Both the position numbers and the translations under genes were made by a program. Below, piece by piece: positions 3 to 46,473 of a stretch of 64,000 nucleotides of DNA. Under the pieces are notes generated by a model that saw nothing but the letters and a program-made list of their open reading frames with translations, did not search any database and was not told the DNA's origin. Positions within the stretch are counted from its first letter, which is position 1, and each line of letters opens with the position of its first letter. The stretch comes from a virus, in the IMG/VR virus record IMGVR_UViG_3300021963_000027, positions 64,001 to 128,000 of that record. One strand, 5' to 3'.

Positions 3-140
3 AAAAATACAGGAGAAGGTGATATCAGAAACGAAAATCTTTCCATTATCATCATCAATCCTGATAGCGTGGTTGAATCTAAAATGGTCGAAGAGATCGA
101 TGGAGAGTATTTAACAGCAATGCAGGACGAATTATATTAA
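3..140 (+). CDS. 3' end of an upstream gene (partial, unknown function)
   Basis: Open frame from nt 3 (KNTGEGDIRNENLSIIIINPDSVVESKMVEEIDGEYLTAMQDELY) ending at TAA 138-140. Confidence 0.5.
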   Translation, partial: KNTGEGDIRNENLSIIIINPDSVVESKMVEEIDGEYLTAMQDELY

Positions 141-143
141 ATA
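138..143 (+). promoter_or_regulatory. gp55-type late promoter (representative of about 20 copies)
   Basis: TAA(A/G)TA exactly 5 nt before the start codon here and before starts at 5635, 7636, 9003, 14743, 15271, 17845, 18326, 19000, 23589, 24799, 25104, 32922, 44531, 46051, 46939, 49390, 56262, 56759, 60039, 60534, 63683. Confidence 0.75.
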
Positions 144-148
144 ATAAT

Positions 149-2179
149 ATGAATTTTCAAGTCCAAGAACTTTATGAATCTGTGTTGATCACGGAGATGA
201 ATCAAAAAGTTATTAATTATCTCGAACAACACACGGATGAATTACCTTTCGATCATATTTTCGGAGACAAAATGCGGGTAGCATTTCCTATTGGAACTGA
301 CATCACTGCGCAAAATATCATCGATGATCTACGTAGAATCAAAAATTTTGATAAGATCGATCTCAAAAAAGGAGAAGTCATCCGTAAACTCAAAATCGAC
401 CCAAAATATGGAAAGGGAGATTATCAAGAACAAAAAATTAATATAGGTAGAGCTATCTCAGCTTTGAAAATTGTAGAAGATAAAAAGAAAAAATATCTCG
501 ATTGGTTTGCTAGATATAAAGATAATCTCGAAGCAGCTTTTGAGAAACCTGAATATGTTGTAGTATTGTCTCGTTCTCCGATTGATGTTGTTCGTATGTC
601 CGACCATCGTAATATATCTTCATGCCATTCCCAAGGTGGTTCATATTTCTATTGTGCCATTCAAGAAGCGATAACTGGTGGGGCAGTTGCATATGTAGTA
701 AATTCTCAAGATTTTGACGAATTGACGGAGGAAGAATTTCAAAATGATGAAATTTTTGTCGATCCTGATCGTGGGGTGAGAGGAGCTGGTTATGGTTTAA
801 GACCACTTTCCAGATTGAGGGTTCGTCGATTAGAGGATGATGAGGGTAATGAAGTGGCAATACCCGATACTAAAATATATGGTAATCAATCGATTCCAAA
901 CTTTTACAACTCACTTAAAAATTACCTCCAGAATAAACAATCTATAACTGCTGGTGATTTCACAGGGCAATACGAAAAAAGAGGCGGGACTTATTACGAT
1001 GATCAAATCGAAGAATTGTTAAGTGATTACTTCAGCGATGAAGATAATAAATATTATCGCCAAGACTTCCCCCGTGTGAAGCATAATCGAGATGATGATA
1101 GAGGAGAAACCAGACACAATGCTTTGAGTATTGAAGATGATTTGAGAAATATTAAAGATCGATACGAGGGTCAAATGACTCATAGTAGTGCCGATTATTA
1201 TATATTCGACGATGATGATAGAAGTTATTTCGATATGTCAGGTTATTCACAGTTAGATATTTCCAAATTTAATTTACCTGATGATATTGATATAGAAATT
1301 GAAGATGAATATTCTATTAGAAAATGGGTGGAAGGAAATTATGACGATAATTACGAATACTCAGCACTAATTCAGTATTTAAAAGATGCTTCCGAAATTC
1401 AAATTTATAGAATTGAAATGGATAATCAGTCTATCAAAATAACATTTAATGATCAGGAAACATCATCTGATCCAGATAATTTTGATTATTTTTGTCGAAA
1501 TATGAAAAGATTTGATGATAAGATAGATGACATGCTTGATGATGAAGACGAATTGTTTGAAGTATTCCTCACTGCTGGATTTATAAAGCCAGCCGAAATT
1601 GATGATAAAAATTTCACTATGATCAAAAATTATATCGATTTAGAAGAGGAGCCATTTACTCATTTATCCATATCTGGTCATGATATTAGAAAATCATTCA
1701 CTGTGAAGTTTCCAAACAGGATTTTCGTTATGCAAGGTGATTATAATGCTATTAGAGATATTAAAGGATATATTGGAGAATCTCATGTTAAACGTGTATT
1801 AAACGATATTATCATTAATTTAGCAAGAGAAACTTTCAAACCCGAATCAGACGAATACGATACCGCACAATTACAGTTTGATAAATTTTTCGAATCTTAT
1901 ACAAATCCTTTAGATGGTATAGATTATTCATTATCGTGTAACCCACATGATAATTACGGTAATTTAGAAATTAGTAATATGAGATTAAATTTCCCAAAAA
2001 TGGATAACAGAAATTATCAATTCGTTGAATTTTTAGATGATATGTATCTACATATCATCAACACATTCAAAGTGTGGGTATTAAATATTTTAAAATTTAC
2101 TAATAATTCTAGTTTCGAGGCATTAGCAAATCAATATAACTATAAACAATTATACAAACTATATAATAAATACCTATGA
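149..2179 (+). CDS. Large acidic hypothetical protein, probable late/internal head protein
   Basis: 676-aa ORF; TAAATA 5 nt upstream; N-terminus ELYESVLITE; conserved-looking SRSPIDVVRMSD...SSCH block; ATGA overlap with cca. Confidence 0.6.
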   Translation: MNFQVQELYESVLITEMNQKVINYLEQHTDELPFDHIFGDKMRVAFPIGTDITAQNIIDDLRRIKNFDKIDLKKGEVIRKLKIDPKYGKGDYQEQKINIGRAISALKIVEDKKKKYLDWFARYKDNLEAAFEKPEYVVVLSRSPIDVVRMSDHRNISSCHSQGGSYFYCAIQEAITGGAVAYVVNSQDFDELTEEEFQNDEIFVDPDRGVRGAGYGLRPLSRLRVRRLEDDEGNEVAIPDTKIYGNQSIPNFYNSLKNYLQNKQSITAGDFTGQYEKRGGTYYDDQIEELLSDYFSDEDNKYYRQDFPRVKHNRDDDRGETRHNALSIEDDLRNIKDRYEGQMTHSSADYYIFDDDDRSYFDMSGYSQLDISKFNLPDDIDIEIEDEYSIRKWVEGNYDDNYEYSALIQYLKDASEIQIYRIEMDNQSIKITFNDQETSSDPDNFDYFCRNMKRFDDKIDDMLDDEDELFEVFLTAGFIKPAEIDDKNFTMIKNYIDLEEEPFTHLSISGHDIRKSFTVKFPNRIFVMQGDYNAIRDIKGYIGESHVKRVLNDIIINLARETFKPESDEYDTAQLQFDKFFESYTNPLDGIDYSLSCNPHDNYGNLEISNMRLNFPKMDNRNYQFVEFLDDMYLHIINTFKVWVLNILKFTNNSSFEALANQYNYKQLYKLYNKYL

Positions 2180-3696
2180 AAAAATTCCATAAATTATACC
2201 ACCAACTCATGCGCGAGTATGTGGAAGACTTCGATCAGAAATGGGACAAAGCTGTTTCCGAATCGGAGGAGCTTCAGGTAGCTCTTGATTTGATGAAAAA
2301 TATCAAAGCAAAATTAAAAGGTGAAATTTATATCGTCGGTGGTGTTCCTCGTGATTTGCTCATGGGTAACGCAATTGATGATGTGGATTTGGCTACCAAT
2401 ATTCCTGTAGAACAATTGGAGAAACATTTTGAATTGAGAAATATTTCCAAGAACGATTCTCAACCAGTCTATGCTATCCTATGGAAAGGATATGTTTATG
2501 ATTTGGCAAAATTCAGAACTGATTCTGGTGATATTGGTAGACAAGCAAATGTCTCAACTGAGACTGATTCCTTCCAAGCTGATACAGAACGCAGAGATTT
2601 AACAATCAATTCTTTCGGGTTGGATGAGAATGGTAAGATCGTAGATTATCAAGGTGGTCTGGATGATTTGAAAAACAAAATCGTTCGTGCTGTAGGAGAT
2701 GCCAAGAAGAGATTCATGGAAGATGCTACAAGGATTCTTCGCGTTTTCCGATTCGCTGCCAAGATGGATTTTGAAATTGAAGACGATACTAAAAAAGCAG
2801 CAATCGAATTGAAATATTTGCTTCAAGATCCGAAAGCTATTTCCAAAGAAAGTATCTCAAAAGAATTTTATAAGTCTGCCAAGACTGGTAGAACTCTTGC
2901 CAATTTCTTGAAAAAATTACAAGACACCAAAATTCTCCATGACATTCTTCCTGAATTTACAGAGATGGAAGGTTTCGATCACGATCCTCAACATCACCCT
3001 GAAGGAGATTCTCAAGTATTGGGACACATCTATGAGTGTCTCAACGCTTCTCCCTACAAAGATCCTATTATTAATCTTGCTGTATTATTCCATGACTTTG
3101 GAAAAGCTACGACTAGAGGGAAAAAAGATAATGGATTTAGTAGCTATCATGGTCACGAAGCTGCTGGTGTTCCCATTGTCGAAGGGATATTTGAGAGACT
3201 AAGATTCAATGAATTGTCTCAACAAGATAAAAAGAATATCTTAGCGGCAGTGGATAAACACATGCTCGTTCATAATCTAGACAAACTCAATATTAAAACA
3301 CTGACTAGACTGATCCAAAATCCTGCATGGGAAACCATTAAAGCAGTTGGTTATTGCGATGAAGCATCGAGAGGCTCTGGTCTTTTCAATGAAAAAGAAT
3401 TTTGGGATAAAGTTAAAAGAGCAGAAGAAAAAGTATCCAACATCGGTGGTTCGGAAGATGAAACAAGAAAACGTCTCAAGCAATATTTCAGTGGAAATAA
3501 ATTGATGGAATGGTTTCCAGTTCTCATCAAAGACAAATCCAAGTTCAAAGATATTACAGCAGCACTACAAGAATATACTCTTGAAGAGTTGAATGCTGGT
3601 AGAGAACCAGATGATTCGGAAATGAAGACAATCGTTGCTGGTATTCTAAAGAAGAATCAATTTAATGAATGGTATAATTATTACCAGAAAAATTAA
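2176..3696 (+). CDS. cca: tRNA nucleotidyltransferase (class II CCA-adding enzyme) with HD domain
   Basis: IYIVGGVPRDLLMG..DDVDLAT, RRDLTINS, EDATRILRVFRFAAK; HD domain GHI...AVLFHDFGKA...GHE. Confidence 0.92.
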   Translation: MKKFHKLYHQLMREYVEDFDQKWDKAVSESEELQVALDLMKNIKAKLKGEIYIVGGVPRDLLMGNAIDDVDLATNIPVEQLEKHFELRNISKNDSQPVYAILWKGYVYDLAKFRTDSGDIGRQANVSTETDSFQADTERRDLTINSFGLDENGKIVDYQGGLDDLKNKIVRAVGDAKKRFMEDATRILRVFRFAAKMDFEIEDDTKKAAIELKYLLQDPKAISKESISKEFYKSAKTGRTLANFLKKLQDTKILHDILPEFTEMEGFDHDPQHHPEGDSQVLGHIYECLNASPYKDPIINLAVLFHDFGKATTRGKKDNGFSSYHGHEAAGVPIVEGIFERLRFNELSQQDKKNILAAVDKHMLVHNLDKLNIKTLTRLIQNPAWETIKAVGYCDEASRGSGLFNEKEFWDKVKRAEEKVSNIGGSEDETRKRLKQYFSGNKLMEWFPVLIKDKSKFKDITAALQEYTLEELNAGREPDDSEMKTIVAGILKKNQFNEWYNYYQKN

Positions 3697-7620: not shown

Positions 7621-7635
7621 GTACTAAATAATAAT

Positions 7636-8043
7636 ATGGGTGAATTAAATAAAAATGTTTTTCCAGATACCATTAAATTAGAAGATTTGGGCATCATTAA
7701 AGGAACGAGAAAATTTCGTCTGTTGGAGGATTTTCGTTGTTATTTTAAAGGTAAATTACTCACCATCCCCAAAGGGTTTATTACAGATGGAATTTCTGCT
7801 CCTAAATTTGCATGGCCTATTATCGGACCTTACGGACCTGCTTTCCCCGCTGCTTTGATTCACGATTGGTGTTTCTCTCCATTCAATAAAGAATATAATT
7901 GGAAAGAATCGAATTGGCTCTTTCTAGAATTGATGAAGGAAGCTGGTGTAGGTTTTACTATGAGATGGACTATCTATTCTGCTGTTGTGGCGGGATCATA
8001 TCCCATATGGAGAAAAAGAATTGAAAGTTACGGTGATAAGTAA
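7636..8043 (+). CDS. DUF1353-family protein
   Basis: FRLLEDF..IPKGFITDGISAP..AALIHDW; TAAATA 5 nt upstream. Confidence 0.8.
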   Translation: MGELNKNVFPDTIKLEDLGIIKGTRKFRLLEDFRCYFKGKLLTIPKGFITDGISAPKFAWPIIGPYGPAFPAALIHDWCFSPFNKEYNWKESNWLFLELMKEAGVGFTMRWTIYSAVVAGSYPIWRKRIESYGDK

Positions 8044-14017: not shown

Positions 14018-14743
14018 TTAATTTTCAAAATCGGAAGGGTAGTAAGGGGAAATATTGGATTCGTTATCGGTTCTATTGATAAGTGTAAGGCTTCTATAAT
14101 CTTGAATAACTCCGAAATAAACGGGGAAATTCAAATCACCCATATAATGGAAAACCCATACTTTAGAACCAACTTCAGGAACGCCCATTAGTCCTTTTGT
14201 TTTATTACTAAATTTTTGTGATTTGTAACCAAATGAATATGTATTACACTTCACAGAGAATGCATCAATTGGTTTATTGAAAGCGTCTCCCATGATAGTA
14301 TCTTTGTTTTCATAGATAAATGCTGGTGAGAATGATCCTGTTTGTAATGTTGGGGGTTCTTCATCATTCACTCGAAACCCTTCTTCATAATTACAATCAG
14401 AAATAGTTGAAATACTATCTTCGTCATTTTGGTAATATCGAGCATTTCCCGATTCACCGATTATTGGATAACATGGTTCTGCCCATGGGATGGTATTGGC
14501 TATTTCTTTGAATATTGCAATGTCATTCCAATTATCAGTTGGATTATTAACACCTGCAATTTTAACATTAATCTCATCGTATTCTTCAAACCAATTATCA
14601 AAAGGTTGGTTGGATAATTCGGGAATGTAAATTTTTACTCTATTCAATTTCAAAGGGTCATCGTTCTTTACGACAATACCACTATAAAATGATTCATCAG
14701 TTCTTTTAGATTCTACACCAGAACCACTACCCCTATTAAACAT
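14018..14743 (-). CDS. gp5: Baseplate hub gp5 N-terminal OB-fold protein
   Basis: GIVVKNDDPLKLNRVKIYIP..WAEP..GVPEVGSKVWVF...PVYFG. Confidence 0.8.
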   Translation of the reverse strand: MFNRGSGSGVESKRTDESFYSGIVVKNDDPLKLNRVKIYIPELSNQPFDNWFEEYDEINVKIAGVNNPTDNWNDIAIFKEIANTIPWAEPCYPIIGESGNARYYQNDEDSISTISDCNYEEGFRVNDEEPPTLQTGSFSPAFIYENKDTIMGDAFNKPIDAFSVKCNTYSFGYKSQKFSNKTKGLMGVPEVGSKVWVFHYMGDLNFPVYFGVIQDYRSLTLINRTDNESNISPYYPSDFEN

Positions 14744-14759
14744 ATTATTATTTAAGAGA

Positions 14760-15343: not shown

Positions 15344-15375
15344 GAAACCCGATGCTCTTCGGTGCATCGGGTTTC
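15344..15375 (-). terminator. Intrinsic terminator after gp23
   Basis: 12-bp stem GAAACCCGATGC/GCATCGGGTTTC, T-tract follows on the minus strand. Confidence 0.85.
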
Positions 15376-15410: not shown

Positions 15411-16898
15411 TTACAGGTAAGTGCTAACAGAACCAGGAGTAAACGCAGTACCAAGACCTTTGACAATGATCAGGTGATAATAAAGATTAGCACCGAAGAT
15501 ATTGTTTACGATACCATAACGGGTCATGAGTCCAACGCGAGGAGCGAAATCATTCGGTCCAATTGTGCGTTGCACCATAATCGGGATGTATGGGCAGTAA
15601 ATAATACCTGTGTCATAGTATTCAGAACCTTTGTAACCCAACAGAGCATACTCAACACCGCCACTGGTTTGACCAGTGTAGGGAGTGCCATAAAGGTTAG
15701 TGTTCTGAACTTCAGTCCGAGTATCACGATAAACCGTCCAGCGGCTACCAACCGTACCAACTTTAGCAATACCTACACCAGCCGTGGAAACAGTTCCATT
15801 AACTTCAAAAACTTTGAAGTCAGGAAGCATTTCAAGGATGCTGCAAACACGAGGAGTTGCGATAACAAAGTTAGCAGCACCTCTACGGTTACGAGCAGCC
15901 ATACGACCACTTTCGATAAGCAAACGTTGATAGAAGGTAAGGTTTCTTTCAGCAGTCCAACGACCATCCGCACTAACAGGACTCCAGATGGAGAAACCTG
16001 CGCCAGCACCAGCATTGAAAGCGGTTTGGATCATACGCATCACAACTTCACGGTCGATCTCAGCTTGGATCTCATACGACATTGCATTCGTAAGTTCTCC
16101 ATCGATATCGATACCGTTCATGTTTTTGATGTCTTGTTCCAACTCTACACTCCAACGAGTTGCAAGTCTACGTGTTCCAGCTTCAACAGCAGTTTTGTCA
16201 AACTTGAGTTCGATTTGAGGGATTTTACCCGTCAATTCGTAGTTGCTCAAGAGTTCAGCAATACCACGGTCTTGATCTGCGAATGTCCAGTGTTCGGTGT
16301 TACCCGAAAGGAATGCAGCAGATGTGCCAGTGAAACGTGTGTCCAGAAGTTGATAACCAAGTTCGTCGGAGGTATTAGAACCAATGGTTCCAAGACCAGC
16401 ACTACCAGTGTAAGCAGCTTTAAGCTGACTACCAAAGGAAGAACCAGTTCCGCCTTGAGAAGCGTATCCATCGATACCACCATCGCTCAGAGTATCACCT
16501 TGATAGGCATAACGGAGAGCGAAAGCAAGACCAACAGGTCCGCCCATAGGCTGAACGCCAACAATTTCGTTGGAAATCAATTCAGGGAAAGTGCGTCGAA
16601 TCATAGGAATCAGAATCTTTGGCAAACGAGCATCACCTGAAGCATAGGAGTCGCTGTTAGCGATACCTGGAACTCCAGTTGGTTGCAAAGTTGCACCAAA
16701 AACGCCGTTACTACCAGCGTTATTCGATTCTTGAAAGCACCACTGTTCTTGGTTCTCAAGCAGCATAGCGGTAGTCTTGTAAACGTGTTCGTTCTGGATA
16801 GCAGGAATCGAGTTCGAGCTATAGTCCAGCACTTTACGCCATTTAGCGACTGCGCGTTGCATTTTTGAGCCATTTAAATCAGTTTGTGGGATATTCAT
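15411..16898 (-). CDS. gp23: Major capsid protein
   Basis: LIPMIRRTFPELISNEIVGVQPMGGPVGLAFALRY, RRLATRWSVELEQD, YCPYIP, PRVGLMTRYG. Confidence 0.97.
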   Translation of the reverse strand: MNIPQTDLNGSKMQRAVAKWRKVLDYSSNSIPAIQNEHVYKTTAMLLENQEQWCFQESNNAGSNGVFGATLQPTGVPGIANSDSYASGDARLPKILIPMIRRTFPELISNEIVGVQPMGGPVGLAFALRYAYQGDTLSDGGIDGYASQGGTGSSFGSQLKAAYTGSAGLGTIGSNTSDELGYQLLDTRFTGTSAAFLSGNTEHWTFADQDRGIAELLSNYELTGKIPQIELKFDKTAVEAGTRRLATRWSVELEQDIKNMNGIDIDGELTNAMSYEIQAEIDREVVMRMIQTAFNAGAGAGFSIWSPVSADGRWTAERNLTFYQRLLIESGRMAARNRRGAANFVIATPRVCSILEMLPDFKVFEVNGTVSTAGVGIAKVGTVGSRWTVYRDTRTEVQNTNLYGTPYTGQTSGGVEYALLGYKGSEYYDTGIIYCPYIPIMVQRTIGPNDFAPRVGLMTRYGIVNNIFGANLYYHLIIVKGLGTAFTPGSVSTYL

Positions 16899-16960: not shown

Positions 16961-17845
16961 TTATCTTCTGAATTCCATCGTTTGAAGGACACTCAGATAA
17001 GGATTATTTTCCTCTACATCATTACTTACCTTTTCCGTGATAATTTTTTGATTTTTCACGAAATCTGGCTTATGTTTACGATTTTGTAGAGCTTCTTCCT
17101 TGATTACTTCAAGTTGTTTCTTCTCTTGTTTTTCAAAAAGACGCACTGTGTAATCGAAATTTTCTTTGATAAAGGTAAGAGACTTGTCACCAAGAGCTTT
17201 CTTAATGAAGTTCTTTTTAGATTCAGGATACTTGGAAGTCTTACCTTCGAGGAAGAGTTTAACTTGTGTGTTATTTTTCTCTTCAGTGATAACTTTGAGA
17301 TTGCTCTTCAAAGAAGCGTTCTCATTACGAAGTTTATCCAATTCAGTTTTACCTTGTAGAATTGCATCGGAAACAGATTCTTTCATGACAGCAGAATCAA
17401 TTGCAAACACTCTGCGAAGATTTTCCAGAACACTCATGGCAGTTTTATTCTTAACTGCTTGCTCAATATCTTTAGCAGGAATGGATTCACTCAAAAATTC
17501 TTCCAAATAAGCACTAACAGATTCAGTGAGTTGTTTTTTGAATCTGATCAGATCACTTTGTTGTTCTCTTTCGTATTTCTTAACAACTTTAACCAATTTG
17601 GCAGTCTTATCTCTATCGAAAGCTTCCATCAATTTTTTCATTTTGATGGTGCGATCTTTATCGAGAGATTCCATAACTGATCCCAATTTAGCAGCATACA
17701 CTTCATCCTGTTCAACCAATGCAGCTTCAACTGCAAGATCTACTTTAGCTTCCAAAGCTTTTTGGATAGCATTAACGGATTCGTCGGAAAGACCGAGACT
17801 TTTTTGAACGTCTTCAGAGAAAAGATTCTGTTTGTTTTTCTTCAT
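16961..17845 (-). CDS. gp22: Prohead core scaffold
   Basis: Coiled-coil ORF between gp21 and gp23; LTESVSAYLEE, ENFDYTVRLF. Confidence 0.85.
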   Translation of the reverse strand: MKKNKQNLFSEDVQKSLGLSDESVNAIQKALEAKVDLAVEAALVEQDEVYAAKLGSVMESLDKDRTIKMKKLMEAFDRDKTAKLVKVVKKYEREQQSDLIRFKKQLTESVSAYLEEFLSESIPAKDIEQAVKNKTAMSVLENLRRVFAIDSAVMKESVSDAILQGKTELDKLRNENASLKSNLKVITEEKNNTQVKLFLEGKTSKYPESKKNFIKKALGDKSLTFIKENFDYTVRLFEKQEKKQLEVIKEEALQNRKHKPDFVKNQKIITEKVSNDVEENNPYLSVLQTMEFRR

Positions 17846-17882
17846 AATATTATTTAGAGATTTGATATAACTTTTTTATGTT

Positions 17883-18326
17883 TTAGAACAAAGGTTTTTC
17901 AATTTCTTGAGAAATTTTCTCTTGAATCTTTTTATTGATGGTATCTTTCAAATATTTATGAGCTTTAGCATGGTCTTCAGTCATGATAGCTTCGATAAAT
18001 TTGATGATAGATGCTGACTCGTTGAGTTCTTTTTTAAGTGTTTTTTGGAGTCCTCCTTTTAATTTATTTTGTTTCGGAGGAGATAATTTTTTACCTTTAT
18101 TTTCTTCACGCATACGCTTCAGATCAGCTTTTTTTACTTCGCTTGTTTCATCTTTTTTAAATTCAGCATCTTCTTCAGGTGGCTTATTCTTACGATTATA
18201 AGAACCTTTACCTTTTTCGGCTTTATGCTTCTGTGTAGAAGGTGCGAAAGCTTTACGATCCTTCACTTTAGGACCATCTAAAGTAACCTTTCCTTCTTTT
18301 TTCATATCTTTAAATGTTTTACCCAT
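17883..18326 (-). CDS. Basic protein: ArfA-like motif plus C-terminal prohead-core (gp67-like) helix
   Basis: KGKGSYNRKNK at aa 38-48; C-terminus FIEAIMTEDHAKAHKYLKDTINKKIQEKISQEIEKPLF; TAAATA 5 nt upstream. Confidence 0.65.
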   Translation of the reverse strand: MGKTFKDMKKEGKVTLDGPKVKDRKAFAPSTQKHKAEKGKGSYNRKNKPPEEDAEFKKDETSEVKKADLKRMREENKGKKLSPPKQNKLKGGLQKTLKKELNESASIIKFIEAIMTEDHAKAHKYLKDTINKKIQEKISQEIEKPLF

Positions 18327-18334
18327 ATTATTAT

Positions 18335-19000
18335 TTAGATACTATTGATAAATTTTATGATTTGTTGACGAAGATACGAATCAACATCACGCCTTGGAAG
18401 GGTCTTAATCGTTTGTTCAAAATTTTCATAGACTTCTTCAAAAGAACCGTCTTGCTCAATAACGAATGTTTTACTTTCCAGAATACCATTAACAAATGCT
18501 TTTGGATAAGATGGATCAGCAACAGCATCGATAGCTACCAAGTGCATGTTCTGAACCAAATTATAATCACGATTTTCCATCAATTGTCCCAATGCACGAG
18601 TGGACATACCAACTTTAACGCCATCATTGATAAGCGCACGGAGGATCTGACCAGTAGGTGTTGACAATACTTTTGCTTTACCAACAAAATAATCATTAAC
18701 TTCAGTCAATTCTGTGACCAAATGGCAAGCTCTTTCCAGATTAACATCAGCACTGGTGGGGTGATTCAACTCACCCATCGCTCTACCTGGAAGAACCATC
18801 TCGTTGATATATCTTTGAACTTCAGTTCTTGTATCATCAAGTTTATACATTCTTTTATTTTTATTCACGCTATTGCAACCAATGAATGGTCCTTTAACGT
18901 AAAGATTGGATGTGCTATTTCGATTGGATTGTTCTTCGATAACTTCAAAGTTATCAAACACATCAGGATTCTCTGCGATTAATTTAAGTTTCAACGCCAT
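18335..19000 (-). CDS. gp21: Prohead protease
   Basis: AMGELNHP, VNLERACH, GKAKVLSTPTG, GMSTRALG, DAVADPS. Confidence 0.95.
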   Translation of the reverse strand: MALKLKLIAENPDVFDNFEVIEEQSNRNSTSNLYVKGPFIGCNSVNKNKRMYKLDDTRTEVQRYINEMVLPGRAMGELNHPTSADVNLERACHLVTELTEVNDYFVGKAKVLSTPTGQILRALINDGVKVGMSTRALGQLMENRDYNLVQNMHLVAIDAVADPSYPKAFVNGILESKTFVIEQDGSFEEVYENFEQTIKTLPRRDVDSYLRQQIIKFINSI

Positions 19001-19033
19001 AATATTATTTATGTTTAATGTTTGTAAATTCTA

Positions 19034-19498
19034 TCAATTTAATTCTTTTTCCGTAATAATAATAAAATCCATGCCATGCTTCTTCGCAAATTCTCTAGCA
19101 AACGACCATTTATCACAATTATTCTTCCATGTTACTTGCTCATAAAGCAGGTTAGATTTCTTTTTATTTTTAGTGGCTTTTGGTTCTTGGGTCTGTTTCC
19201 AAGGTTTAACCTCTATAAGATATTTTTTAATTTTATCACCTTCTTTTATTTTTACGTAAGCATCGATAAAATATTTACGATTTTTCTTTTGAACACTGTC
19301 AAAATAAGGAATAGCAACCTCTTCACTATTCCATTCCAGAACATTCGCATTATTATCAGCCCATCGAAATAATTTTAATTCTAAACCAGATCGATAAATT
19401 ATATTATCCAATTTGCCAATATATTTGGAAGGATTTTTGGGAGCATAAAATCCTTGATAAAATTTACTATTACGTTTTGATAAGCCGAGACTGCCCAT
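19034..19498 (-). CDS. gp4: Head completion protein
   Basis: FYQGFYAPKNPSKYIG..IIYRSGLE..WNSEEVAIPY..YFID..LIEVKP. Confidence 0.92.
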   Translation of the reverse strand: MGSLGLSKRNSKFYQGFYAPKNPSKYIGKLDNIIYRSGLELKLFRWADNNANVLEWNSEEVAIPYFDSVQKKNRKYFIDAYVKIKEGDKIKKYLIEVKPWKQTQEPKATKNKKKSNLLYEQVTWKNNCDKWSFAREFAKKHGMDFIIITEKELN

Positions 19499-23627: not shown

Positions 23628-24815
23628 TTACATGACTAAGAAGGATAGGGGATCGAAATCTCCGTATCCACCTTCGATTAAGAATTGTTCCAATTCTTTT
23701 TTCTCTGCAACACCTTCTGACAAAATGGAATCACCATTGATAGAACCACCACCAGGTAAATTCACACCATTAATTTTAGTGAGAATTCTACCCCACATAA
23801 CTTTGCATAAAGCAGTGGAGTATTCCAATACCCACTTTTCTTTCACCAAATCTTTGAGCGGTTTTTCCACATAACATTCCAACAAACCATAGAATGTGGT
23901 ATTTTTTGGTTGTGGTAACAAACGTAAATATTGTGTTCTAGGGTCGAAATGAATATCTCTTCTCGTGGCAAACATTTTTTCTCTGGTATCGATCCAATCT
24001 TTGACAGTATGCCAAGAAAGAATATCGAAACCATAATTCCCAAGAGAATATGCGTGGTAAGATTGTTGCGCCATGGTTTGTTCCACGGAGAACAATGTGT
24101 TCACACCAGTCGTAGAACCTTCTTCAAATGATATGACATCAACGACTTTTCGATAATCCATGATATCATAATCGAACATATTGTTGTAGGTGCGAACATC
24201 TTCTTTCGGTTCACATTGAACAGTGAAAGGTTTTTGATAAGATTGTTGGAACAACGAACTCAAAGAAGGATTGAATCCGACAAATAAGTCATAGGTAGCT
24301 TTATCAATAATTTGCATTTGTGTAATACCATCGGATGGAACTACAGCACTCAAAGACGACGAAGAAGCAAAATAAGAATTCGGTATGGTTGACAAAGAAA
24401 TATACAACGCATCGGTAATCTTCACTTCATAATCAGGATTAGGTCCGAGTTTCTTATCATTTAATTTTTCCGATGGAGTATATCCAGAATTTGCCACAGT
24501 GAAAAGAGTGTCCAGTCTGATCCCTTTACCACTTTCATATAATCCACTATTAAAAATTATATATTCTTTGGAATATCCAGCGTATTTCGTATAAAAATCC
24601 GTTGCCATCGAAATTGCTTCATAAAGTTGGTCATAATGCAACTCGACATTGATCATTGGATGTCCTAGTAATCTCAAGATTCTTTCTCCCAAACGTTGAT
24701 AACACTCGATCTTTGAATTGAGATTAGTGGACATGAAAGCTGAAATTGGTTCTACTTGACAAAGGCTCATAGAATTATTTAATACGCTAAATAATAATAT
24801 GTCATTTGAATCCAA
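23628..24815 (-). CDS. gp13: Neck protein
   Basis: ILRLLGHPMINVEL..DQL; WVLEYSTALCKVMWGRILTK..GVNLPGG..INGD. Confidence 0.9.
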   Translation of the reverse strand: MDSNDILLFSVLNNSMSLCQVEPISAFMSTNLNSKIECYQRLGERILRLLGHPMINVELHYDQLYEAISMATDFYTKYAGYSKEYIIFNSGLYESGKGIRLDTLFTVANSGYTPSEKLNDKKLGPNPDYEVKITDALYISLSTIPNSYFASSSSLSAVVPSDGITQMQIIDKATYDLFVGFNPSLSSLFQQSYQKPFTVQCEPKEDVRTYNNMFDYDIMDYRKVVDVISFEEGSTTGVNTLFSVEQTMAQQSYHAYSLGNYGFDILSWHTVKDWIDTREKMFATRRDIHFDPRTQYLRLLPQPKNTTFYGLLECYVEKPLKDLVKEKWVLEYSTALCKVMWGRILTKINGVNLPGGGSINGDSILSEGVAEKKELEQFLIEGGYGDFDPLSFLVM

Positions 24816-45583: not shown

Positions 45584-46051
45584 TTAATAATCACGGGACT
45601 GATCGAAACCAGTATTCGCAAAATCAGCTTTAGCATCAAGACGATGCCAAACATCGGAAACATAAGTCGAAGAAATAGTAATCGCTGAAACCATCCAATC
45701 TTCAAATTCACAATCGTTTCTCATTTCATACAAACGATTAGCATATTCAGCGAGTTTTTTCAACTCAGATACAAGAACCTCATTGACTTCATGTTTTTCC
45801 ACAGGACTAATTGGATCAAATTCCATAACCATCCCATGTGCTTCAGGCTCATCGTCGTCACCGAAGTCATCACCCTCACTATCAAATCCACCCTCACCGA
45901 AATCTGGATCATCGTCCATCATTCCATAATCATCATCATCACCCATGTCATCACCAAAGTCATCATCCATCTCGTCATCGAATCTTTCGTTCATAACTCC
46001 ACCACGGAAAGATTCCCAAATCACTTTATTTTCTTCTCCTTTGAATTTCAT
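45584..46051 (-). CDS. Acidic hypothetical protein
   Basis: DDDFGD-type low-complexity repeats; TAAATA 5 nt upstream. Confidence 0.6.
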   Translation of the reverse strand: MKFKGEENKVIWESFRGGVMNERFDDEMDDDFGDDMGDDDDYGMMDDDPDFGEGGFDSEGDDFGDDDEPEAHGMVMEFDPISPVEKHEVNEVLVSELKKLAEYANRLYEMRNDCEFEDWMVSAITISSTYVSDVWHRLDAKADFANTGFDQSRDY

Positions 46052-46059
46052 AATATTAT

Positions 46060-46473
46060 TTAGTCAATCGCGTTTAAATTCTGTGCTTCTTCTTTATCAT
46101 TCTGAATTGCGTTGATAATTGGTAGAATTTCTTCTTCATAAAATTCTTTACCAGTCTTTCCAGTCTGTTGTAGTAATTTTTGAGCCTCGTCATCATCCTG
46201 CAAAGCAACTTCAAGTTCTTTCAGATTTGATTTATCTGCTTCTGACACGTTAGTAGTTGTTGCGTATAACAATGCCATCACAACATGCTTAATGTAATTA
46301 ATTTCTGCTATGGAAGTCAGAGGAACAGGATTAGCTTCTTCCGCTGGTGGTGCTTCAGGTGCTGGTTGCCCCTCTTGAGGAGGTGCTTGTTCCATACCAG
46401 CATTAGGATCTTGCTCGTCTTGTTCAAGAAGACGACTATATTTTTCAATTAATTGTAATGTTTTTGATTTCAT
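46060..46473 (-). CDS. Hypothetical protein
   Basis: P/A/E linker (APPQEGQPAPEAPPAEE); ATG 46473 just after the upstream stop. Confidence 0.6.
   Translation of the reverse strand: MKSKTLQLIEKYSRLLEQDEQDPNAGMEQAPPQEGQPAPEAPPAEEANPVPLTSIAEINYIKHVVMALLYATTTNVSEADKSNLKELEVALQDDDEAQKLLQQTGKTGKEFYEEEILPIINAIQNDKEEAQNLNAID

What the first reader, a model, noticed from the sequence alone, without database searches (positions are those of the whole stretch)
17883..18326. ArfA-like ribosome-rescue motif fused to a prohead-core-like helix inside the head operon
Seen: aa 38-48 (nt 18183-18215) read KGKGSYNRKNK, preceded by FAPSTQKHKAE. The C-terminal ~45 aa (IIKFIEAIMTEDHAKAHKYLKDTINKKIQEKISQEIEKPLF) look like a gp67-type core protein, with ELNE|S just before it, and the gene lies between gp21 and gp22. 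Established: E. coli ArfA has KKGKGSYMRKGK, the segment that binds the empty mRNA channel and decoding centre of non-stop ribosomes to recruit RF2, and gp21 cleaves core proteins after Glu. Inference: the basic ArfA-like peptide is carried into the prohead by the core domain, released by gp21 and injected, or acts late in the cytoplasm, to rescue or commandeer stalled ribosomes. With the CCA/HD enzyme this would form a phage translation-repair system that I do not know to be described.
Basis: partly seen in the sequence, partly recalled or inferred. Interest (0 to 1): 0.82.

Follow-up and report, generated by a model that had tools for sequence, protein, structure and literature searches.

The report
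Phage head-core protein with ArfA-like arm
A distant T4-like phage has, between its head protease and scaffold genes, a small late protein that joins a likely head-core docking helix to a disordered basic arm; the arm carries a conserved copy of the segment that the bacterial rescue factor ArfA threads into the ribosome, but it lacks the part of ArfA that activates release factor RF2, so ribosome rescue is unproven and unlikely in its classical form.

Summary
ORF 17883-18326 (minus strand, 147 aa) lies between gp21 and gp22 and reads KGKGSYNRKNK at aa 38-48. After LNE|S it ends in a conserved helix-turn-helix.

The ArfA likeness is more than chance. A profile of the phage N-domain matches an ArfA alignment at 95% probability (P 3e-8). 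It also ranks all seven independent ArfA genes above about 2,000 decoy ORFs. The match covers only ArfA Q27-K44, the A-site strand plus the mRNA-tunnel segment. The hydrophobic N-terminal minidomain that opens RF2 is absent, and the window protein scores below Pfam's cut-off (21.2 against 25.5 bits).

The C-terminal module is a widespread unit, found on 139 of the 162 sequences examined. It follows a [LVI]-x-E|[SN] junction and carries very different basic arms; one other-armed member checked occupies the same slot. Its likeness to T4 gp67 is weak (no PF17634 hit; hhalign P 0.004).

The best reading is a prohead core or internal protein whose arm is freed by gp21. Ribosome binding is inferred, and RF2-dependent rescue is unlikely. 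Small stand-alone ArfA genes are already annotated in cultured phages.

This scan has noted the same fusion in other genomes (e1-5706199, e1-5833134, e1-5828659).

The parts
17883..18326 (-). ORF147, the whole coding sequence (147 aa, stop TAA at 17883-17885)
   Evidence: ORF list and sequence. 34 homologues at E<=1e-3 and 131 representative clusters.
18324..18337 (-). Start-proximal element TAAATAATAATATG, ending in the ORF147 start codon and overlapping the gp21 stop
   Evidence: The same element abuts the gp21 and gp22 starts. There are 17 copies in the window against 0.5 expected; those I checked against the ORF map end in an ORF's ATG.
18234..18326 (-). N-domain front half (aa 1-31, MGKTFKDMKK.GKVTLDGPKVKDRK.FAP.T): conserved, with no ArfA counterpart
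   Evidence: 74% mean identity across the family. It is never aligned to ArfA profile positions 1-24. It is predicted to be disordered.
18183..18233 (-). ArfA-like core (aa 32-48, QKHKAEKGKGSYNRKNK), equivalent to ArfA residues about 28-44
   Evidence: Pfam ArfA profile 26-42/44, E 2e-4, 21.2 bits. hhalign gives 95% probability, P 3e-8. Decoy test.
18027..18182 (-). Variable Lys/Glu-rich linker (aa 49-100)
   Evidence: 41% identity and 32% gaps; its length ranges from 3 to 109 aa in the family.
18015..18026 (-). Junction L-N-E|S (aa 101-104), candidate prohead-protease site
   Evidence: E103 is invariant in the close family. Over 122 proteins P3 is hydrophobic in 75%, P1 is Glu in 88% and P1' is S/N in 74%. 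It matches the T4 gp21 rule L/I-x-E (PMC9026906) and the site pattern of this phage's own gp22 and gp23.
17886..18014 (-). C-terminal helix-turn-helix module (aa 105-147, ends EKPLF), inferred core-docking unit
   Evidence: 85% identity in the family. Helices at 105-115 and 119-143, block-mean pLDDT 66-85. It is found as a C-terminal unit on 139 sequences with unrelated arms.
18335..19000 (-). gp21-type prohead protease, immediately upstream in the same transcription direction
   Evidence: Peptidase_S77 E 6e-28 and phrog_207 E 1e-52.
16961..17845 (-). gp22-position scaffold protein, immediately downstream
   Evidence: Assigned by position and synteny. It has the highest density of phi-x-E-[SAG] sites among 76 ORFs: 6 against 1.3 expected, P 0.003.
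15411..16898 (-). gp23 major capsid protein; the operon ends at the terminator 15344-15375
   Evidence: Pfam Gp23 E 3.5e-84. FQE|S at aa 55-58. Terminator.

Best explanation
ORF147 is a late head-operon protein built of three parts.

1. A C-terminal helix-turn-helix ending in PLF, which docks the protein into the scaffolding core of the prohead. This is the job done in T4 by gp67/gp68-type core proteins and by the capsid-targeting sequences of internal proteins.
2. A prohead-protease site, LNE|S, directly in front of that module, with further phi-x-E sites inside it.
3. A disordered basic arm of 103 aa (pI about 10, about 11.8 kDa) that has no such site in its first 71 residues.

During head maturation gp21 would cut at Glu103 and degrade the docking module. 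The arm would stay in the head with the DNA and could leave with it at infection.

Residues 31-48 of the arm are a diverged copy of the ArfA core, the stretch that lies in the A site and the empty mRNA tunnel of the 30S subunit. This core was probably taken from the small ArfA-like genes that many phages carry. The arm would therefore bind ribosomes whose tunnel is empty. Because it lacks ArfA's RF2-activating minidomain, it is not expected to trigger peptide release the way ArfA does.

Shown: the anatomy, the conservation, the synteny and the sequence relation to the ArfA core. Inferred: docking, cleavage, retention or ejection, and ribosome binding.
For: Gene and context:
- The gene sits between Peptidase_S77 and the gp22-position protein, then Gp23.
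- The same order is seen in relatives L003, L005 and L102.
- There is no terminator inside gp21-ORF147-gp22-gp23.
- ORF147 has its own copy of the start element shared with gp21 and gp22.

Docking module:
- 139 of the 162 sequences examined carry the C-terminal helix, on arms that are ArfA-like, DUF3008-like, CWxGY...NCV, RGKR..WDD or long low-complexity.
- P0133, 549 aa with an unrelated arm, occupies the identical slot.

Protease site:
- The junction consensus is [LVIFM]-x-E|[SN] over 122 proteins.
- gp22 is the ORF richest in such sites (P 0.003), and gp23 has FQE|S where a propeptide should end.
- Candidate sites in ORF147 lie at 72, 101, 110, 115 and 134, with none in aa 1-71.

ArfA core:
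- Pfam E 2e-4; 27 of 34 homologues hit ArfA; relatives P0052, P0160 and P0044 pass the gathering score.
- hhalign gives 95% probability, P 3e-8, over ArfA Q27-K44.
- The N-domain HMM ranks seven independent ArfA ORFs above 2,009 decoys.
- Relatives read TKVEKPKKGKGSY, against phage ArfAs QKVEKPKKGKGSY (Arash) and SKTEKPKKGKGSY (pf16).
- The same N-domain occurs alone on other phage contigs, away from head genes, so it is a unit in its own right.
- The arm is predicted to be disordered, as the tails of rescue factors are off the ribosome (PMC8012679).
Against: - There is no direct evidence that the protein is in proheads or virions, is cleaved, or touches ribosomes.
- The helix is not a recognisable gp67. 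PF17634 gives no hit in the protein or the genome, and the C-helix HMM scores gp67 among the decoys.
- In T4 the targeting sequence of ejected proteins is a 10-residue N-terminal peptide, not a 44-residue C-terminal module, and most fragments of core proteins leave the head.
- GKGS is replaced or deleted in 13 N-domain-bearing members, including a whole syntenic lineage (P0032, L003), and 70 helix proteins have no ArfA-like part. The motif is therefore dispensable for whatever the slot does.
- In the window's own lineage the A-site strand reads QKHK, not RVEK or TKVE.
- Acidic residues (PPEEDAE) begin six residues after the motif.
- The shared stretch is short (17-18 residues) and lysine-rich.
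Confidence: 0.45

Rival explanations
1. A purely structural core or internal peptide. The basic arm neutralises or organises packaged DNA, or acts as a spacer in core assembly. Its ArfA-like stretch is just one of several interchangeable lysine-rich, backbone-binding segments and has no ribosomal role.
For: - The arms of the family are interchangeable and nearly all basic.
- Linker length ranges from 3 to 109 aa.
- GKGS is lost in a syntenic lineage.
- 70 helix proteins have no ArfA-like part.
- T4 heads keep some processed core fragments (gp22*) and internal proteins (PMC9026906).
Against: - The N-domain is conserved at 63-74% identity while the linker drifts.
- It occurs alone, as a 38-68 aa protein, in early-type regions of unrelated phage contigs, which a DNA-packing filler would not.
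- Its match to ArfA is specific and is not shared by T4 gp68's basic tail (E 1).
Confidence: 0.3
2. One reading: a true ArfA-type rescue factor that recruits and activates RF2 on non-stop ribosomes, either after ejection or late in the cytoplasm.
For: - The family shares the ArfA tunnel segment and, in relatives, the TKVE strand that in ArfA pairs with RF2 (PMC8012679).
- Phages do carry full mini-ArfAs with the N-terminal minidomain: Arash, pf16, J2-1 and RXM.
Against: - No member aligns to ArfA profile positions 1-24.
- That region holds Ala18, Leu19, Leu24 and Phe25, which are needed to open RF2; ArfA A18T still binds but does not release (PMC5378476).
- The window protein is below Pfam's cut-off.
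- The protein is a 147-aa fusion with its own stop codon, not a small protein made from a truncated mRNA.
Confidence: 0.08
3. A cytoplasmic late protein that is not packaged. The C-terminal helices oligomerise or tether it to the assembly site, and the arm acts on ribosomes or RNA in the infected cell while head proteins are being made.
For: - It is co-expressed with the head genes.
- Stand-alone N-domain proteins in other phages must act in the cytoplasm.
Against: - The invariant Glu junction and the clustering of phi-x-E sites in the C-module would then have no explanation.
- Neither would the strict slot between protease and scaffold for members with quite different arms.
Confidence: 0.1

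Closest known systems
ArfA (YhdL; Pfam PF03889) of Gamma- and Betaproteobacteria
   Same: It shares an 18-column stretch equal to ArfA Q27-K44: K-x-K-K-G-K-G-S-Y-x-R-K plus the preceding strand. In ArfA this lies in the A site and the empty mRNA tunnel (PMC5378476, PMC8012679). Both are disordered off the ribosome.
   Different: It has no N-terminal hydrophobic minidomain for RF2 activation. It is a 147-aa fusion with its own stop codon inside a head operon. The window protein is below Pfam's gathering score. There is no hydrophobic C-terminal tail or non-stop mRNA control.
Small ArfA-like genes of cultured phages (Citromicrobium phage RXM g10 and Pseudoalteromonas phage J2-1, both annotated ArfA; Salmonella phage Arash gp99c; unannotated ORFs in pf16, RsoM2USA and CRP-212; XM05_102)
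   Same: They have the same core, near-identical in some relatives (KVEKPKKGKGSY). J2-1 lacks GKGS, as the P0009/P0032-type members of this family do.
   Different: They are stand-alone proteins of about 40-75 aa that keep the ArfA N-terminal minidomain pattern. They sit among early or tRNA genes, not in the head operon, and have no C-terminal helix.
T4 gp67 (PIP, prehead core component; Pfam PF17634, phrog_1064) and gp68
   Same: All are small proteins encoded beside gp21 and gp22. A helix of the type ..IEAI...D..A.K.. aligns over 32 columns (hhalign P 0.004; only 1 of 150 shuffles scores as high). L/I-x-E sites are present.
   Different: There is no PF17634 or phrog_1064 hit. The gene order differs: T4 has 20-67-68-21-22-23, while here it is 21-ORF-22-23. 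In gp67 the helix is N-terminal with an acidic tail; here it is C-terminal with a basic arm.
T4 internal proteins IPI-III and Alt with their capsid targeting sequence
   Same: [quoted passage not shown]
   Different: The T4 targeting sequence is a 10-residue N-terminal peptide. Here the candidate is a 44-residue C-terminal helix-turn-helix. There is no sequence similarity, and packaging is not shown.

Membership tests
ArfA (PF03889) | Basic segment with K-KGKGS-Y-x-R-K that occupies the empty mRNA tunnel (ArfA aa 31-48) | tested here: met
   Pfam profile 26-42/44 aligned. hhalign 95%, P 3e-8, 18 columns. Reciprocal HMM and decoy test.
ArfA (PF03889) | Whole-protein score at or above Pfam's gathering cut-off (25.5 bits) | tested here: not met
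   21.2 bits for the protein and 23.1 bits in the six-frame search. Relatives P0052 (28.7), P0160 (27.1) and P0044 (26.1) do pass.
ArfA (PF03889) | A-site strand Q27-E30 that extends the RF2 beta-sheet | tested here: inconclusive
   The columns align, but the window reads TQKH where ArfA reads QRVE. Many relatives read TKVE or TKTE. Pairing with RF2 cannot be tested here.
ArfA (PF03889) | Hydrophobic N-terminal minidomain (Ile11, Ala18, Leu19, Leu24, Phe25) that opens RF2 | tested here: not met
   No member aligns to profile positions 1-24, and hhalign stops at Q27. The role of these residues is taken from PMC5378476.
ArfA (PF03889) | Small stand-alone protein made from a truncated, non-stop mRNA under tmRNA control | tested here: not met
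   It is a 147-aa fusion with its own TAA stop, in a head operon.
ArfA (PF03889) | RF2-dependent peptide release on non-stop ribosomes | not testable with these tools
   This needs biochemistry.
T4 gp67 / PIP (PF17634) | Sequence match to the GP67 family model | tested here: not met
   No PF17634 hit at E<=10 in the protein or in the whole phage genome. No phrog_1064 hit (compare).
T4 gp67 / PIP (PF17634) | Helix homologous to the gp67 N-terminal helix | tested here: inconclusive
   hhalign over 32 columns gives P 0.004 and probability 8%. The score of 17.2 compares with shuffles at 8.7 +/- 2.2, and 1 of 150 shuffles reached it. HMM against gp67 gives E 2.2, among the decoys.
T4 gp67 / PIP (PF17634) | Encoded in the head operon next to the prohead protease and scaffold, with L/I-x-E sites | tested here: met
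   The order differs from T4 (21-ORF-22 against 67-68-21-22).
T4 gp67 / PIP (PF17634) | Component of the prohead core, processed by gp21 | not testable with these tools
   This needs prohead or virion proteomics.
T4 internal proteins with capsid targeting sequence | Short N-terminal targeting peptide removed at L/I-x-E | tested here: not met
   The conserved module and the Glu junction are C-terminal. No phi-x-E site lies in aa 1-71.
T4 internal proteins with capsid targeting sequence | Packaged in the head and ejected into the host | not testable with these tools
   This needs experiments.

The most novel reading that the evidence does not exclude
The phage packages many copies of an ArfA-core peptide in its head, by way of a cleavable C-terminal docking helix, and delivers them with the DNA. 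There the peptide occupies the empty mRNA tunnels of host ribosomes at the very start of infection. Because it keeps ArfA's ribosome-binding part but not its RF2-activating part, it could act as a blocker of host rescue or initiation, or as a primer of ribosomes for phage messages, rather than as a rescue factor. The other arms on the same helix (DUF3008-like, CWxGY..NCV, RGKR..WDD) would then be a wider, undescribed set of virion-delivered peptides.
Probability: 0.2. Interest if true: 0.85.

Novelty: new variant of a known kind. Interest (0 to 1): 0.6.

Why it matters
Ejected head proteins are known to attack host restriction enzymes and RNA polymerase, but I found no report of a virion-carried peptide aimed at the ribosome. 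The papers I could search hold no functional study of any phage ArfA-like gene, only annotations. This family gives a sharply testable case. It has a defined 17-residue ribosome-tunnel motif, a defined protease site and a defined docking module. These recur in many uncultured T4-like phages, alongside stand-alone versions in other phages. Even if the ribosome idea fails, the C-terminal PLF helix with its Glu junction looks like a general capsid-loading tag that carries diverse cargo. That would be useful for annotating head operons and possibly as a packaging handle.

Tried and rejected
- tblastn of ORF147 against 50,697 cultured phage records found nothing at 1e-3. A relative (P0052) gave only weak hits to its other N-terminal module. 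The family therefore has no cultured member in that collection.
- PDB sequence search gave no hit at E<=10.
- PHROGs gave nothing below E 0.2.
- Comparison with T4 gp68 gave no similarity.
- The JGI label 'ribosomal protein S21' on relative P0021 was not borne out by Pfam, and there is no bS21 gene in this phage.
- The CRP-212 tblastn hit was first rejected because it is out of frame with the annotated gp38. It was then recognised as a separate small ORF in another frame.
- Attempts to collect diverse cellular ArfAs returned almost only Enterobacteriaceae, and two set-up calls failed. The ArfA alignment used is therefore small: 5 cellular and 7 phage sequences.
- The gp67 relatives found were nearly all Tequatrovirus, so the gp67 profile is shallow.
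- The canonical T4 late promoter TATAAATA is not enriched and does not lie next to the gene.
It was redone from files.
- The atlas look-up scored only 0.84, so it is a lead only.
- No fold search was made, because the model is low-confidence and mostly disordered.

Full report
**1. The observation**

The window has 35% G+C. It is part of a 184-kb IMG/VR virus record estimated to be 89% complete. On the minus strand, 17883-18326 encodes a 147-aa protein.

Residues 38-48 read KGKGSYNRKNK and residues 27-37 read FAPSTQKHKAE. ELNE|S stands at 100-104, and the last 44 residues end in EKPLF. *E. coli* K-12 ArfA, translated from the genome record, reads KKGKGSYMRKGK at residues 33-44.

Directly upstream lies a Peptidase_S77 prohead protease (E 6e-28). 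Downstream lie a 294-aa protein in the gp22 position and then Gp23 (E 3.5e-84). The major capsid protein is only about 33% identical to those of T4-like cyanophages, so this is a distant T4-like lineage.

**2. Family and anatomy**

A word-indexed search found 34 homologues. Their alignment shows five regions:

| Region | Residues | Identity to window | Notes |
|---|---|---|---|
| N-domain front | 1-31 | 74% | no ArfA counterpart |
| ArfA-like core | 32-48 | 63% | |
| Linker | 49-100 | 41% | 32% gaps, length 3-109 aa |
| Junction | 101-104 | 69% | Glu103 invariant |
| C-terminal module | 105-147 | 85% | helix-turn-helix |

AlphaFold2 run on this alignment predicts no secondary structure in residues 1-60. 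It places helices at 62-75, 91-101, 105-115 and 119-143. The last two form a helix-turn-helix with block-mean pLDDT of 66-85, and the overall pLDDT is 64.

The gene order gp4-like / protease / this gene / gp22-like / Gp23 recurs in relatives with the GKGS motif (L005) and without it (L003).

**3. Two separable units**

An exhaustive profile search of 1.84 billion representative proteins gave 131 clusters. Reading the sequences shows two separable units.

The C-terminal helix, consensus ES.I..FI.AI..KNYA.A.KYL......K.Q.RI......PLF, is present on 139 of the 162 sequences. It is always at the C-terminus. Of these:
- 56 carry G[KR]G[SAG][YF].
- 13 keep the N-domain frame (GP.VK.RK.FAP.T...K...Y.RK) but have GKGS replaced or deleted.
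- 70 have quite different arms: DUF3008-like (PF11450), CWxGY...NCV, RGKR..WDD, DYDxDGK, or long low-complexity sequence.

P0133, 549 aa with an unrelated arm, sits in the very same slot between protease and scaffold.

Conversely, the N-domain occurs alone in proteins of 38-68 aa. Three of these (P0145, P0160, P0152) lie on phage contigs among small early-type ORFs, HNH, ParB, terminase or RNR genes, not in head modules.

**4. Relation to ArfA**

- Pfam ArfA matches the window protein at E 2e-4 and 21.2 bits, below the 25.5-bit cut-off, over residues 32-48 (profile 26-42 of 44).
- 27 of 34 homologues match, the best at E 5.4e-6. Relatives P0052, P0160 and P0044 pass the cut-off.
- Every match covers only profile positions 25-43.
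- A six-frame search of the phage's own genome finds this as its one match, at E 1.2e-5.

Cultured phages encode true mini-ArfAs. These are *Salmonella* phage Arash gp99c (mislabelled 'ribosomal protein L2'), an unannotated ORF in *Pseudomonas* phage pf16, *Pseudoalteromonas* phage J2-1 and *Citromicrobium* phage RXM g10 (both annotated ArfA; PMC8953757), *Erythrobacter* phage XM05_102, and unannotated ORFs in *Ralstonia* phage RsoM2USA and *Roseobacter* phage CRP-212.

An HMM built from 75 phage N-domains ranks all seven of these, plus *E. coli* ArfA, above every one of 2,009 decoy ORF fragments. The ArfA E-values run from 5e-6 to 0.15, and the first decoy is at 0.24.

Profile-profile comparison with a 12-sequence ArfA alignment gives 95% probability and P 3e-8 over 18 columns, ArfA Q27-K44, and stops there.

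Relatives read TKVEKPKKGKGSY, next to QKVEKPKKGKGSY in Arash and SKTEKPKKGKGSY in pf16. J2-1 lacks GKGS exactly as the P0009/P0032 type does. I conclude that the core shares ancestry with ArfA, most likely through phage mini-ArfAs.

**5. What is missing**

According to Demo et al. (PMC5378476):
- ArfA His21-Glu30 lies in the A site.
- Residues 31-48 lie in the mRNA tunnel.
- A hydrophobic N-terminal minidomain (Ala18 in its core; Leu19, Leu24 and Phe25 contacting RF2) is what opens RF2. A18T binds but does not release.

The review PMC8012679 adds that Q27-E30 extend the RF2 beta-sheet and that the tunnel contacts are redundant. Goralski et al. (bioRxiv 10.1101/465609) note that no single KGKGS residue is essential.

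All true ArfAs in my alignment, phage ones included, keep the pattern N.[AV]...L..P.[FY]R.R. The ORF147 family has GK.TF.GP.VK.RK.FAP.T instead. The family thus has the ribosome-sensing part of ArfA but not its RF2-activating part.

In the window's own lineage the strand reads QKHK rather than RVEK. Acidic residues begin at position 51. By the ArfA register this is about where the chain would reach the solvent end of the tunnel (ArfA 44-48). That is my inference.

**6. Head-core reading**

T4 gp21 cuts after Glu in L/I-x-E. The T4 core holds gp21, gp22, gp67, gp68, Alt and IPI-III. Core proteins are cut into fragments that mostly leave the head. [quoted passage not shown]

- Over 122 helix-bearing proteins, the junction has a hydrophobic residue at P3 in 75%, Glu at P1 in 88% and Ser/Asn at P1' in 74%.
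- In this window, gp22 has the highest density of phi-x-E-[SAG] among 76 ORFs: 6 against 1.3 expected, P 0.003.
- gp23 has FQE|S at 55-58, about where T4 gp23 is matured.
- In ORF147 such sites lie at 72, 101, 110, 115 and 134, and none lies in residues 1-71.
- The freed arm (aa 1-103) would be 11.8 kDa with pI 10.0.

Expression evidence points the same way. No terminator separates gp21, ORF147, gp22 and gp23, and a strong one follows gp23. ORF147, gp21 and gp22 each have the element TAAATAATAWTATG ending in their start codon. That element occurs 17 times in the window against 0.5 expected.

**7. Relation to gp67**

T4 gp67 and gp68 were read from the T4 record. The results are mixed:
- Pfam GP67 (PF17634) hits neither the protein nor the genome, and phrog_1064 is not hit.
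- The helix HMM scores gp67 at E 2.2, among the decoys.
- hhalign with the 122-sequence helix alignment against 120 gp67 sequences aligns 32 columns at P 0.004 and probability 8%.
- Column shuffles give 8.7 +/- 2.2 against the observed 17.2, reached by 1 of 150 shuffles. The reversed control scores 9.3.

This is suggestive of a distant relation, or of a similar amphipathic helix, and no more. The layout is also inverted: in gp67 the helix is N-terminal with an acidic tail.

**8. Verdict**

Its anatomy-based inference, a core-docking helix plus protease site plus payload, is the best-supported model, although every step after the sequence is inferred. Its functional claim of RF2-dependent rescue is unlikely as stated. 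The proposed partnership with the CCA/HD enzyme (2176-3696; PolyA_pol head plus HD) has no support beyond the two genes sharing a genome.

Phage ArfA-like genes are already annotated in public records but, as far as the searchable literature shows, have never been tested. I found no description of the fusion to a head-core module. Notes from this scan report the same fusion in other genomes. I used them only as leads and tested the gp67 and ArfA claims myself.

Noticed in passing
window, 17 sites, e.g. 138-151 (+), 7625-7638 (+), 14741-14754 (-), 17843-17856 (-), 18324-18337 (-), 18998-19011 (-), 24788-24801 (+), 46049-46062 (-): The element TAAATAATAWTATG, ending in the ATG of an ORF in the cases checked, occurs 17 times against 0.5 expected. 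It looks like a combined late-promoter or short-leader start signal of this phage. The canonical T4 late box TATAAATA is not enriched.
   Followed up: partly
L102:1416-1619 (relative contig, JGI 3300015375): A relative of this phage carries a ribosomal protein bS21 gene (PF01165, weak) inside its head module, between the gp13-like and gp4-like genes. It lies two genes upstream of the same-slot protein P0133. The window's phage has no bS21.
   Followed up: partly
proteins P0038-P0164: The C-terminal PLF helix carries several other recurring basic modules of unknown function: DUF3008-like MPSKTEKQKKFFGAV (21 sequences), CWxGY...NCV (16), RHPK...RGKR..L..WDD (9) and DYDxDGK (4). They are often combined in one protein, sometimes together with the ArfA-like domain.
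   Followed up: partly
L016:2917-3141 (Salmonella phage Arash gp99c): This gene is annotated 'ribosomal protein L2', but it is an ArfA homologue, 63% identical to E. coli ArfA over residues 4-41. It sits just downstream of a run of tRNA genes.
   Followed up: partly
L014:2986-3135 (pf16), L101 about 1500-1650 (RsoM2USA), L099 about 2480-2600 (CRP-212): These are unannotated small ArfA-like ORFs in cultured phages. The CRP-212 one lies in another frame inside the annotated 3' end of the large gene gp38, two genes upstream of the coat protein.
   Followed up: partly
L015:2983-3138 (Pseudoalteromonas phage J2-1): A gene annotated ArfA keeps the N-terminal minidomain pattern but lacks GKGS (RVERDKT-KYRRKKKH). 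The motif is therefore not obligatory even among clear ArfA homologues.
   Followed up: no
window 19034-19498 (-): The gene upstream of the protease is a head-closure (gp4-type) protein with a TnsA-like endonuclease N-terminal fold (PF08722 E 9e-21; phrog_218). It is conserved at this place in relatives.
   Followed up: no
I found no link to ORF147.
   Followed up: partly
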